Program-made: the position numbers and the translations under genes
Notes under the pieces: generated by a model
Database searches by the model: none
Told to the model about the DNA's origin: nothing
What the model saw: the letters and a program-made list of their open reading frames with translations, nothing else
Shown here: positions 12,361-41,575 of the stretch, piece by piece
Layout of the letters: each line of letters begins with the position of its first letter
Numbering within the stretch: the stretch's first letter is position 1
Assembly: GCA_048939625.1 (NCBI GenBank)
Contig: JBHLPH010000010.1
Coordinates: 9,943 to 73,942 of the forward strand
DNA from: Promethearchaeota archaeon
Lineage (GTDB): Archaea; Asgardarchaeota; Hermodarchaeia; Hermodarchaeales; Hermodarchaeaceae
Direction: 5' to 3'
Length of the DNA: 64,000 bases

Positions 12361-12636
12361 ATGAGTCTAGTTGAAGTTGGAAGAGTTTGCGTGAAAACGC
12401 GCGGTCGAGAGACCGGAAAGAAATGTGTTGTTGTTGAACGTGTGGACAAAAATTTCGTCCTTGTATCCGGACCCCAAGAAATTTCTGGAGTCCGTCGTCG
12501 CCGAGTGAACGTCGACCATTTGGATCCGACGAAAAAGAAAGTCGACATCAAAGCTGGTGCAGAAGACGCTGCCATTGTGAAGGCTATCAAGGACGCTAAA
12601 CTTACACCGTTCATGAAAGAAGCTGGAAAAGAATAA
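12361..12636 (+). CDS. rpl14e: 50S ribosomal protein eL14
   Basis: EVGRVCVKT.GRE.G, VRRRRVNV.HL.P. Confidence 0.96.
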   Translation: MSLVEVGRVCVKTRGRETGKKCVVVERVDKNFVLVSGPQEISGVRRRRVNVDHLDPTKKKVDIKAGAEDAAIVKAIKDAKLTPFMKEAGKE

Positions 12637-12670
12637 CACACCGCTCCCTGTACGGGAGTTGAGGAGGACA

Positions 12671-13730
12671 TTGGATCTGACAAAATCGCGGCTGCCTGCA
12701 GATAAGAAACGGAAATTAGTAACGCGAGCTGAAGACACCACAAACCCTACTTATGGTCGGATTCCTGCGAAGCGAACTATCCTGGAATTATTCCAGGATG
12801 GCATCATTAACCTGGATAGCTTGGCTTAAGGGGTTTCAACCCTTTCCAAACCCAGAAAAACCACCAGGACCGACCAGTCACGAAGTAGTGTCTTGGATCA
12901 AACGCATTCTAGCCATATCTCGTGCAGGCCATTCGGGAACATTGGATCCCCAAGTCACAGGTGTACTCCCAGTTATGTTAGGGAATGCCACAAAAATTGC
13001 CAATGCCCTGCTAACGTCAGGTAAAGAATACATTTGCATAATGCGCCTTCATCGGCAAGAAGAACCTCAGAAGGTTCGGGAAGCTGCCACAGAATTCGTT
13101 GGGACAATTTATCAACGTCCGCCTGTCCGTTCTTCAGTAAAGCGACGTGTACGCACACGTCACATCTATTATCTGGATATCCTTGAAATCGAGGACCAAA
13201 ACGTACTCTTTCGTGTTGGATGCCAAGCTGGCACCTATATTCGGAAACTCGTTTATGATCTTGGTGAAGTTCTCGGCAGTGGAGCCCATATGGCTGAACT
13301 CCGACGAACACGCACGGGACCATTCAAAGAAGACAATACGTTAGCAACCTTGTATGATGTTAAGGATGCCTATCAGTTTTGGCACGAAGACAAGGATGAT
13401 CGGCTACTCCGGCAATATCTACAACCTCTCGAAAATGGCGTCCAACATCTACCCCAAATTATAATTCGAGACACAGCAGTGGATGCCATATGTCACGGTG
13501 CGAACCTAGCGGTTACCGGAGTGTTACAGCTTCATGACGATATCGAACCAGGTGATTACGTTGCGCTGATGACCTTGAAGGGTGAGTTGGTCGCCCTCGG
13601 AATTGCTCAACAAAAGAGTCAGCAAATATTACAAGCTTCATCAGGGATTGTAGCAGATACCAAGCGGGTTGTGTTAGCAGCAGGAACCTATCCATCCAGT
13701 TGGCGAAAAAAAACTAAAGACACTGGCTAA
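12671..13730 (+). CDS. cbf5: H/ACA pseudouridine synthase Cbf5; join(12671..12817,12858..13730), 339 aa after splicing
   Basis: Exon 1 (TTG after GAGGAGG) encodes ...TTNPTYG.IP..R...GIINLD. Exon 2, in another frame, encodes KPPGPTSHEV...GHSGTLDP...GTYIRKL and a PUA domain. Confidence 0.93.
12818..12857 (+). other. 40-nt archaeal-type (BHB/BHL) mRNA intron in cbf5
   Basis: Central helix CUGG(12812-15)/CCAG(12852-55); bulges AUA(12816-18) and AAA(12856-58); internal hairpin; in-frame TAA at 12827; removal restores the frame. Confidence 0.85.
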
Positions 13731-13755
13731 CAAACACCTTTTAGGAAAAATATAA

Positions 13756-13871
13756 TGGCGCCGCGGACGAGATTCGAACTCGTGCGACCCGAGAGTCACA
13801 GGCTATATGAGCATCGCCAAATTAGTGACGAGATTCCAGGCCTGCGCCGTAAACCACTTGGCTACCGCGGC
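13756..13871 (-). tRNA. tRNA-Ser(GGA) with a 29-nt intron at 37/38 (13805-13833) and encoded CCA
   Basis: Acceptor GCCGCGG/CCGCGGC, anticodon arm CAGGC-CTGGAA[intron]A-GCCTG, long variable arm, T-loop TTCGAAT, G73-CCA. Confidence 0.95.
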
Positions 13872-25406: not shown

Positions 25407-26075
25407 TTAGGTCTTATCACGGTCTAAATCCATGTTTCCCAAGATTGCATTCGCCAGATTATTCAAATCTTGTTCTGTCCAATCTGGACATTCGTCAATG
25501 AGTAATTCAGCGATCTCTGATTTGTAGGTGTCTCGATTCATGTATTCTAGTGCGTATTCCTGGCAGATCTGTCGAATTTGTTCAGTTGCAATCACAGGCG
25601 TTTCCACCCATTTAGTGATATAAGCCTCAATCGCCTCTCGCCCATCCTGTTCGAGGTTGAGTTGGGCTTCTTCTTGCCAGAGTGCTATTTCCTTTTTTGC
25701 ATTGATGGGCTCATCAGAAGCATGGGCAACATTGACTCCTCCAACAATACCATATTTGCCACGAAGGCTCTCTGGATCGGCTTTTTCTACAAACGTAGCT
25801 CCCAAGACTTCTCGAAGCCGGGACACGATATTTTCACCTTCTAAGACCGTAGCGACGACATTACCCACTTCGATGAATTGCAGCAACCAGGGGTAGAAGA
25901 ACTTTCCCTCATGAATCGCATAATGCTTCTCGGCAAGATGGTGCGAGACTGGGATCTCAAGAAATCCTTTGAACACTACATCAGGGAGAGCACTGAGGAT
26001 TTGTTCAAAGACCGCAGCACCTACTCCTCTCCGCATTGTAGAATCCGGTTTGAGGATAAGAAGAGTCTGTTCCAT
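25407..26075 (-). CDS. ndk: Nucleoside diphosphate kinase with C-terminal extension
   Basis: TLLILKPD, HY..H.GK.F, LRG, NVAHASD catalytic His; start placed at MEQTL. Confidence 0.88.
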   Translation of the reverse strand: MEQTLLILKPDSTMRRGVGAAVFEQILSALPDVVFKGFLEIPVSHHLAEKHYAIHEGKFFYPWLLQFIEVGNVVATVLEGENIVSRLREVLGATFVEKADPESLRGKYGIVGGVNVAHASDEPINAKKEIALWQEEAQLNLEQDGREAIEAYITKWVETPVIATEQIRQICQEYALEYMNRDTYKSEIAELLIDECPDWTEQDLNNLANAILGNMDLDRDKT

Positions 26076-41131: not shown

Positions 41132-41575
41132 ATGGGATCAAAACGAAAACCATCCAAAAAAGAAACTTCAGAGATTCCACTCAAGCTAGAAAAAGAGGTG
41201 AAGGGTGCAACTGATTCTGAATGCGAGGATTTGACCGAACGAATTCTCGAGCATCTTCCAAACCTAGCCAATGAGATGAAGACATCAGAAGCTGAAGTTC
41301 AAATTGATGGTGTGCGATGGGAAGAAACTGACCGCACTCGTCAGCCCGTTCGAGGCGGTGAGGACCGCTTTTCAGGTTATTCTCCGGATGTTATTGATTT
41401 TCTTAGGCGTTGTGCGACAGATGATGAAGCATTAGAAATTATCTCTTTCTTAGAGAAACGGGGAGAAATCAATTCAAATCATGCTGAAGAACTCCGGAAA
41501 CAATTACAGAATCAAGGTCTTCGCAGTTTCGGAACGAAGAAATCTTGGGGCCATTACGAACGGGAAAGCTCATAA
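41132..41575 (+). CDS. DUF2095-like archaeal protein
   Basis: P.VIDFLRRC.T..EALEII..LEKRGEI...GLRSFG..K..G.Y. Confidence 0.75.
   Translation: MGSKRKPSKKETSEIPLKLEKEVKGATDSECEDLTERILEHLPNLANEMKTSEAEVQIDGVRWEETDRTRQPVRGGEDRFSGYSPDVIDFLRRCATDDEALEIISFLEKRGEINSNHAEELRKQLQNQGLRSFGTKKSWGHYERESS

What the first reader, a model, noticed from the sequence alone, without database searches (positions are those of the whole stretch)
12671..13730. cbf5 is interrupted by a 40-nt BHB-type mRNA intron at the motif-I D|K junction in a probable Asgard archaeon
Seen: the true Cbf5 N-terminus (TTG 12671 after GAGGAGG; ...GIINLD) runs into TAA at 12827, while KPPGPTSHEV... resumes in another frame at 12858. Removing exactly 12818-12857 restores INLDKPPGPTSH and a 339-aa protein. 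The same boundaries follow independently from RNA geometry: a perfect 4-bp helix CUGG(12812-15)/CCAG(12852-55), 3-nt bulges AU^A and AA^A with cuts after the second bulge base, closing pair G12819-C12851, and an inner hairpin UUGG/CCAA plus AAGGGGU-UUCA-ACCCUUU. The outer helix is imperfect, so the motif is a relaxed HBh'/BHL. Known: tRNA-endonuclease (EndA)-type introns in cbf5 are described in Crenarchaeota (Aeropyrum, Sulfolobus), within the catalytic Asp codon; here GHSGTLDP is uninterrupted. Inference: an independent intron gain at a second site of the same gene, implying enzymatic mRNA splicing in a eukaryote-related lineage and repeated selection for splicing control of Cbf5. I cannot confirm it is unreported.
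Basis: partly seen in the sequence, partly recalled or inferred. Interest (0 to 1): 0.93.

Follow-up and report, generated by a model that had tools for sequence, protein, structure and literature searches.

The report
tRNA-type intron splitting Asgard cbf5
The only gene for the RNA-modifying enzyme Cbf5 in this Asgard (Hermodarchaeota-like) archaeon is broken by a 40-base insert shaped like a tRNA intron, at a different site from the one such archaeal case in print, so its mRNA very probably has to be cut and rejoined by the tRNA-splicing enzymes.

Summary
Window 12818-12857 is a 40-nt insert that breaks the genome's single cbf5. Removing it joins ..GIINLD to KPPGPTSH.., giving a 337-339 aa Cbf5.

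All 14 species of the genus with a cbf5 carry a 40-43 nt insert at this codon boundary. Nine shift the frame and the five in-frame ones contain stops. The sister genus and the other Asgard genomes inspected are uninterrupted here.

The fold is a relaxed bulge-helix-bulge (HBh'): a 4-bp helix CUGG/CCAG, a closed 3-nt 5' bulge, a 6-bp inner helix and a hairpin. It is 93.7% paired, seven pairs show compensatory changes, and 0 of 500 shuffles reach this. The exonic Leu codon CTG in the central helix is the only one of 22 conserved Leu codons that never varies.

The genome encodes a crenarchaeal-type (alpha-beta)2 EndA with the specificity loop, and RtcB. The site lies 30 codons upstream of the published crenarchaeal site, the catalytic Asp codon.

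Splicing is inferred: I obtained no RNA data. "Selection for splicing control of Cbf5" is not supported, because at least two other genes here carry such introns.

This scan already noted the same intron in sister species. I found no paper describing it.

The parts
12661..12667 (+). Shine-Dalgarno-like GAGGAGG upstream of cbf5
   Evidence: The (G/A)AGGAGG block is conserved upstream of the aligned start in 12 of 14 genus members.
12671..12679 (+).
   Evidence: Position 12677 aligns with ATG (1 species), GTG (6) and CTG (7), 9 nt after the SD. TTG at 12671 is present in only 3 species. The start was not determined.
12671..12817 (+). cbf5 exon 1 (DKCLD N-terminal domain, ends ..GIINLD)
   Evidence: for the translation. 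for Pfam PF08068 DKCLD (1.2e-08).
12812..12815 (+). 5' strand (exonic CUGG) of the central 4-bp helix H
   Evidence: H is 100% paired in 14 species; the Leu codon CTG here is the only one of 22 conserved Leu codons that is invariant.
12816..12818 (+). 5' three-nucleotide bulge AU|A, with the predicted cut between 12817 and 12818
   Evidence: RNAfold predicts a closed 3-nt bulge between H and h' in all 14 species.
12818..12857 (+). 40-nt BHB-type (HBh') intron. It contains an in-frame TAA at 12827-12829 and shifts the frame by +1.
12819..12824 (+). 5' strand of inner helix h' (GCUUGG), pairing with 12846-12851. C12820 opposite A12850 is a mismatch in this species.
   Evidence: helix 2 is 88% paired and 3 of its 6 pairs show changes on both sides (C-G, U-A, U-G at 12820/12850; U-A, U-G, C-G at 12821/12849).
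12828..12845 (+). Intron hairpin: AAGGGGU (12828-34), loop UUCA, ACCCUUU (12839-45)
   Evidence: helix 3 is 95% paired and 4 of its 7 pairs show compensatory changes. RNAalifold predicts it independently.
12846..12851 (+). 3' strand of inner helix h' (CCAAAC)
12852..12855 (+). 3' strand (intronic CCAG) of central helix H
   Evidence: the only variants are CCGG and CUAG, and both keep pairing through G-U wobble.
12856..12858 (+). 3' splice-site trinucleotide AA|A, with the predicted cut between 12857 and 12858. No outer helix closes it, so the motif is relaxed.
   Evidence: Column 22/73 can form a single U-A pair in 11 of 14 species but not here (C opposite A).
12858..13730 (+). cbf5 exon 2 (motif I KPPGPTSH, catalytic Asp codon at 12945-12947, TruB_N, TruB_C_2, PUA, stop TAA 13728-13730)
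   Evidence: The first ten codons are invariant at protein level with synonymous variation, so they are translated.

Best explanation
The 40 nt at window 12818-12857 are an archaeal bulge-helix-bulge intron of the relaxed HBh' type inside the cbf5 coding sequence, in phase 0 between the Asp and Lys codons of ..INLD|KPPG..

Proposed mechanism:
1. In the pre-mRNA, exonic CUGG pairs with intronic CCAG to form the 4-bp central helix.
2. A 3-nt bulge (AUA), closed by a 6-bp inner helix, presents the 5' cut site. The 3' cut site lies two nucleotides past the helix, in an unclosed AAA.
3. The (alpha-beta)2 splicing endonuclease, which carries the crenarchaeal-type specificity loop, cuts after the second nucleotide at each site.
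4. RtcB joins the exons. Only then can full-length Cbf5 (337-339 aa) be translated.

The intron was gained in the stem of one Hermodarchaeota-like genus, independently of the classic intron in the catalytic Asp codon.

Shown here: the insert, its conservation, the covarying structure, the exonic synonymous constraint and the presence of the enzymes. Inferred: cleavage, ligation and the exact cut sites.
For: 1. cbf5 is single-copy in this genome and broken by the insert.
2. All 14 genus members with a cbf5 have a 40-43 nt insert at the same codon boundary. Nine are frameshifting and all five in-frame ones carry stops, while the flanking residues G(I/V)INLD and KPPGPTS are invariant.
3. The structure is 93.7% paired. 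Seven pairs have changes on both sides, 0 of 500 shuffles reach the observed values, and slid controls give 26-62% paired.
4. RNAfold gives helix H, the 3-nt bulge and h' as the minimum-energy fold of the minimal substrate in all 14 species.
5. The intron strand of H changes only to wobble-compatible bases.
6. The exonic CTG in H is the one invariant codon among 22 conserved Leu codons. Overall, 8 of 189 conserved degenerate codons are invariant.
7. The exon-2 codons directly after the 3' site evolve like coding sequence.
8. The EndA alpha subunit (186 aa) aligns end to end with A. pernix alpha (3P1Z_B, 4.8e-47). Its loop reads RKPK where A. pernix has EKPR, so the Lys44 equivalent is kept (PMC3241643). 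A beta-like paralogue and RtcB are present.
9. Published work reports this EndA type in Asgard archaea and shows it cleaves relaxed motifs (PMC5829648).
10. At least 15 of the 28 tRNA genes ARAGORN detected in this genome carry introns.
Against: There is no RNA-level evidence.

- No spliced form of this lineage appears among predicted proteins: all relatives at 75% identity or more are called truncated and lack DKCLD.
- A scan of JGI metagenome contigs for the spliced junction found only distant lineages.
- The motif lacks the outer exon helix, so it is not a strict hBHBh' substrate.
- On the 81-nt context, the single-sequence MFE pairs CCUGG with a downstream exonic CCAGG instead (z-score 0.70). 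RNAalifold prefers an exon-internal partner for CUGG.
Confidence: 0.85

Rival explanations
1. Split gene without RNA splicing. The roughly 50-aa DKCLD peptide and a C-terminal protein started at an internal codon (for example the GTG about 10 codons into exon 2, as gene callers assume) are made separately and assemble non-covalently.
For: Automatic gene calls in public data annotate exactly such truncated proteins of 247-310 aa. On a Logan contig the two pieces are called as separate genes.
Against: - Motif I (KPPGPTSH) lies upstream of any start codon in the exon-2 frame, yet it is invariant at protein level with synonymous variation in all species.
- This model does not explain the covarying helix-bulge structure or the frozen exonic CTG codon.
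Confidence: 0.05
2. Translational bypassing. The ribosome hops over the 40-43 nt gap, as in phage T4 gene 60, using the hairpin.
For: A stable hairpin sits in the gap. The gap length is close to the 50-nt T4 case (my own knowledge).
Against: - There are no matched take-off and landing codons: GAU versus GAA before the landing site.
- The codon after take-off is Ser (AGC or AGU), not a stop.
- The conserved features are exactly those of an EndA substrate, namely a 4-bp helix and a 3-nt bulge.
- The genome is rich in BHB introns.
Confidence: 0.03
3. Pseudogene or assembly artefact.
For: The genome is a MAG of 83 contigs, 87.6% complete with 6.3% contamination.
Against: - The same insert is present in 14 independently assembled species and in further Logan, JGI and ENA contigs.
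- Both exons are under purifying selection.
- cbf5 is single-copy here.
Confidence: 0.01

Closest known systems
cbf5 pre-mRNA intron of Crenarchaeota (Desulfurococcales and Sulfolobales; Watanabe 2002 as cited in, and Yokobori 2009 = PMC2738675)
   Same: It is in the same host gene and is a short intron with a BHB or relaxed BHB motif. It occurs in organisms with an (alpha-beta)2 EndA, and it must be removed to make functional Cbf5.
   Different: - Site: the published intron lies between letters 1 and 2 of the catalytic Asp codon. Here that codon (12945-12947) is intact, and the intron lies 30 codons upstream, in phase 0, at the DKCLD/motif I boundary.
- Lineage: this one is in an Asgard genus.
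- Origin: its restriction to one genus points to an independent gain.
- Splicing has been shown experimentally in Crenarchaeota, but not here.
Asp-codon cbf5 introns that I found in other Asgard families and in Bathyarchaeia (loci L117-L125, L030, L129, L131, L064, L084, L094)
   Same: They are in the same phylum and the same gene, and are EndA-type introns of 26-41 nt.
   Different: They sit at the classic G|AY position and mostly fold as textbook hBHBh' with an exon-exon outer helix. The intron in this window lacks the outer helix and sits elsewhere. No genome examined has both.
Archaeal pre-tRNA BHB introns, including relaxed HBh'/BHL forms (Marck and Grosjean 2003, as cited in PMC11291895 and bioRxiv 10.64898/2026.10.13.758758)
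   Same: They share the 4-bp central helix, the 3-nt bulge, the cut after the second bulge nucleotide and an inner intron helix. The same enzymes would act on them.
   Different: The host is an mRNA coding sequence. The exonic half of the motif is a Leu-Asp codon pair rather than a tRNA stem.
HVO_1309 5'-UTR intron of Haloferax volcanii (PMC7714728; PMC10485636)
   Same: It is an EndA-cleaved BHB element in an mRNA.
   Different: It lies in the untranslated leader, not in the coding sequence, and is cut by an alpha2-type EndA.

Membership tests
Archaeal EndA-type (bulge-helix-bulge) intron | Central 4-bp helix with a 3-nt bulge on its 3' side on the 5' strand, closed by an inner helix h' | tested here: met
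   CUGG/CCAG, then the AUA bulge, then a 6-bp h'. H is 100% paired and h' 88% paired in 14 species. This is the MFE fold in all 14.
Archaeal EndA-type (bulge-helix-bulge) intron | Second 3-nt bulge on the opposite strand, closed by an outer helix h (strict hBHBh') | tested here: not met
   After CCAG comes AAA, but at most one U-A pair can close it, and none in this genome (C12811 opposite A12859). It therefore qualifies only as the relaxed HBh' class.
Archaeal EndA-type (bulge-helix-bulge) intron | Cuts after the second nucleotide of each bulge give a functional mature RNA | tested here: met
   Cuts at 12817|12818 and 12857|12858 restore the frame and the conserved INLDKPPGPTSH. The same rule works in all 14 species despite insert lengths of 40-43 nt.
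Archaeal EndA-type (bulge-helix-bulge) intron | Structure maintained by compensatory evolution | tested here: met
   Seven pairs show changes on both sides, and 0 of 500 shuffles reach the observed measures. The exonic CTG codon is frozen.
Archaeal EndA-type (bulge-helix-bulge) intron | Host encodes a splicing endonuclease able to cut relaxed motifs, and an RNA ligase | tested here: met
   Alpha and beta EndA paralogues are present. The alpha subunit keeps the specificity loop and the Lys44 equivalent. RtcB is present.
Archaeal EndA-type (bulge-helix-bulge) intron | Intron absent from mature RNA (spliced junction, excised or circular intron) | not testable with these tools
No spliced form turned up in the protein or metagenome collections.
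Crenarchaeal-type cbf5 intron (orthologous insertion) | [quoted passage not shown] | tested here: not met
   GHSGTLDP is contiguous at 12927-12950. The defining position is taken from PMC2738675.
Cbf5 / TruB-family pseudouridine synthase (host gene) | DKCLD, TruB_N, TruB_C_2 and PUA domains with motif I and the catalytic Asp | tested here: met
   Pfam hits over the curated cut-offs on both exons. The spliced protein is 71-72% identical to the uninterrupted sister-genus Cbf5.

The most novel reading that the evidence does not exclude
Protein-only (EndA plus RtcB) splicing of coding mRNAs is a routine part of gene expression in this Asgard lineage and is not a cbf5 oddity. Across archaea, cbf5 has been colonised independently at two sites.
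Probability: 0.6. Interest if true: 0.85.

Novelty: new member of a known kind. Interest (0 to 1): 0.7.

Why it matters
In print, only one archaeal coding sequence is known to be interrupted by a tRNA-type intron: cbf5 of some Crenarchaeota, at a single site. A Haloferax 5'-UTR case is also known (PMC7714728, PMC10485636).

- This finding adds a second, independently gained site in the same gene, in the archaeal phylum closest to eukaryotes.
- Together with the other broken genes in this genome, it suggests that endonuclease-based mRNA splicing is much commoner in Asgard archaea than the literature shows.
- It has a practical consequence. Gene callers annotate this essential protein as truncated in every public relative, so marker-gene and pangenome analyses of these lineages are affected.
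- In two species Cbf5 would need both RNA splicing and intein splicing.

Tried and rejected
- **Spliced forms among predicted proteins.** The exon-2 search found about 30 clusters at 70% identity or more, all truncated and lacking DKCLD. The exon-1 search for longer proteins found only a 100-aa odd chimera, not a spliced form.
- **Spliced junction in JGI metagenome contigs.** The scan gave three hits, all from distant lineages (50-57% identity) that carry Asp-site introns.
- **Copy or mobile-element origin.** nhmmer with the intron core against the whole genome found only the intron itself.
Both exons supply CUGG, but the intron sequences are unrelated in this genome and in most relatives. Rejected as unsupported.
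- **Single-sequence folding of the 81-nt context.** It is not more stable than shuffles (z-score 0.70), so thermodynamics alone does not identify the motif. The comparative data do.
- **Extra cbf5 intron sites in Asgard.** The 'stops inside' matches checked (G034, G047, G142) were in-frame Asp-site introns. The others (G033, G139, G356, G371) showed no stop within the coding alignment or one at its very edge.
- **Paralogue check.** There is no second cbf5 in the genome, only PUA-domain hits.

Full report
**What is there**

The + strand of window 12550-13800 carries cbf5 downstream of a KOW-domain protein and a cytidylate kinase, and upstream of an intron-containing tRNA-Ser and ribosomal protein S13.
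- One frame reads ..FQDGIINLD and then runs into TAA at 12827.
- A second frame resumes with KPPGPTSHEVVSW.. at 12858 and continues to TAA at 13728-13730.
- The first piece is a DKCLD domain. The second carries TruB_N, TruB_C_2 and PUA.
- Removing 12818-12857 (40 nt) gives INLD|KPPGPTSH, which is contiguous in uninterrupted relatives.
- The genome (G000, 2.31 Mb, 83 contigs, 87.6% complete) has no other cbf5.

**Whose genome**

The closest named records are Candidatus Hermodarchaeota archaeon YT1_028 and Promethearchaeota MAGs (85% identity over exon 2), with one MAG labelled Thorarchaeota at 76%.

**Conservation**

In a search of 60 relatives, every member of the same genus with a cbf5 shows the break at the same residue. 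I fetched the two remaining members as well.
- All 14 species carry an insert of 40 (4 species), 41 (4), 42 (5) or 43 (1) nt exactly between the Asp and Lys codons.
- Nine inserts shift the frame, and all five in-frame ones contain stop codons.
- The flanking residues G(I/V)INLD and KPPGPTS are invariant.
- The four species of the sister genus read GIINID-KPPGP without interruption.
- In a scan of 400 Asgard genomes with the sister-genus protein, only this genus broke at about residue 50 among the 150 best rows shown.
- Among 80 named archaeal loci, only the four from this genus did.
- The simplest history is one gain in the stem of this genus.

**Structure**

- The central helix (12812-15 with 12852-55) is paired in every species. 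Its intron strand varies only to CCGG or CUAG, and both keep pairing through wobble.
- The 5' bulge is always 3 nt.
- The inner helix (12819-24 with 12846-51) has three pairs with changes on both sides. Position 12820/12850, for example, is C-G, U-A, U-G, or C opposite A as here.
- The hairpin has four such pairs.
- Overall 93.7% of cells pair and seven pairs are compensatory. None of 500 shuffles reaches the observed values, and sliding the partners drops pairing to 26-62%.
- RNAalifold independently recovers the inner helix and hairpin.
- RNAfold on the minimal substrate gives helix, 3-nt bulge and inner helix as the optimum in all 14 species.
- No outer exon-exon helix exists. At best a single U-A pair can form, and not in this genome.
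- On the longer 81-nt context the single-sequence fold is unremarkable. The case rests on comparison, not on energy.

**Constraint on the exon**

In a codon alignment of ten complete genes, 189 columns have an invariant, degenerate amino acid. Only 8 of them use one codon throughout. Of 22 invariant Leu columns only one does: the CTG that supplies C, U and G of the central helix. The codons just after the 3' site (K, P, P, G, P, T, S, H) vary synonymously while the protein is invariant, so this stretch is translated. That fits splicing. It does not fit translation starting at the GTG about 10 codons into exon 2, where gene callers place the start.

**Machinery**

- The genome encodes two EndA paralogues.
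- The 186-aa one aligns end to end with the catalytic alpha subunit of Aeropyrum pernix EndA (3P1Z_B, 4.8e-47). It keeps the crenarchaeal specificity loop, reading RKPK where A. pernix has EKPR, so the Lys44 equivalent is present.
- That loop and that lysine confer cleavage of relaxed motifs (PMC3241643).
- The 198-aa paralogue resembles structural beta subunits.
- RtcB is present.
- Published work already assigns (alpha-beta)2 EndA with this loop to Asgard archaea (PMC5829648).
- At least 15 of the 28 tRNA genes that ARAGORN finds in this genome have introns.

**Comparison with the known case**

[quoted passage not shown] Reviews still list cbf5 of Crenarchaeota as the only coding-sequence example, beside a Haloferax 5'-UTR intron. 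Here that Asp codon (12945-12947) is intact and the intron is 30 codons upstream. Full-text searches found no paper on a cbf5 intron in Asgard archaea or at a second site.

1. The classic Asp-codon intron is not limited to Crenarchaeota.
   - I found it in at least five other Asgard families, among them Atabeyarchaeum and Borrarchaeum, and in Bathyarchaeia.
   - The eight Asgard examples I folded are 26-41 nt, and most fold as textbook hBHBh'.
2. Earlier notes of this scan pointed to other broken genes in this same genome.
   - I checked two of them.
   - A 31-nt element with GAGG/CCUC and AA|A, AA|U bulges splits an EF-2 paralogue. Its removal opens a 712-aa frame.
   - A 30-nt element with CAUG/CAUG splits a Rab-like GTPase, whose removal opens a 175-aa frame.
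   - cbf5 is thus one of several targets, and "selection for splicing control of Cbf5" has no support.
3. The lead that the intron derives from the neighbouring tRNA-Ser intron is not borne out here. The intron also has no other copy in the genome.

**Limits**

No RNA data could be obtained. No spliced form of this lineage turned up in the protein or metagenome collections. Cleavage, ligation and the exact cut sites are therefore inferred. The product is identical for 12818-12857 and 12819-12858.

The start codon is uncertain.

This scan has already reported the same intron in sister species. I treated those notes as leads and re-derived the evidence from the sequences.

**Verdict**

This is a real, conserved, structurally constrained EndA-type intron at a new site of cbf5 in an Asgard genus. 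My confidence is about 0.85. It is a new member of a known kind.

Noticed in passing
L117-L125, L030, L129, L131 (Asgard families f7, f12, f15, f17, f18); L064, L084, L094 (Culexmicrobium, Bathyarchaeia): The classic cbf5 intron between letters 1 and 2 of the catalytic Asp codon is present in at least five other Asgard families, including Atabeyarchaeum (CP147780) and Borrarchaeum, and in Bathyarchaeia. In print it is described only for Desulfurococcales and Sulfolobales. The eight Asgard examples I folded are 26-41 nt and most fold as textbook hBHBh'. Some are in-frame with stops.
   Followed up: partly
L115:504-2963 (-) (G010) and L116 (G005): In two species of the same genus, cbf5 also carries an in-frame insert of about 540 aa between TruB_N and TruB_C_2. 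It hits Intein_splicing and LAGLIDADG_3. Cbf5 there would need both RNA splicing and protein splicing.
   Followed up: partly
window 12677-12679: The conserved start position of cbf5, 9 nt after GAGGAGG, is CTG in 7 of 14 species including this one, GTG in 6 and ATG in 1. Four species have no ATG, GTG or TTG near the conserved N-terminus, which suggests CTG initiation.
   Followed up: partly
window 13759-13871 (-): A tRNA-Ser(GGA) gene with a 29-nt intron after position 37. Rfam finds it at 48 bits, but ARAGORN misses it in default mode. With intron mode on, at least 15 of the 28 tRNA genes ARAGORN detects in the genome carry introns.
   Followed up: partly
G000:C28 about 25995-26025 (-): A 31-nt insert in an EF-2 paralogue between ..EEQRRG and ITIKSAN.. 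It has a 4-bp helix GAGG/CCUC, bulges AA|A and AA|U, and an inner hairpin. Removing it (phase 1) opens a 712-aa frame containing DTPGH and NKID.
   Followed up: partly
G000:C12 about 41405-41434 (-): A 30-nt insert in a Rab-like small GTPase. It has an outer helix UCGUAC/GUACGA, a central helix CAUG/CAUG and a 9-bp intron stem. Removing it (phase 2) opens a 175-aa frame containing GDGAVGKT and NKVD.
   Followed up: partly
public protein collections: Every Cbf5 cluster at 75% identity or more to this one (NCBI, JGI, ENA, Logan) is annotated as a 247-310 aa protein without the DKCLD domain. Gene callers systematically truncate this gene at the intron.
   Followed up: yes
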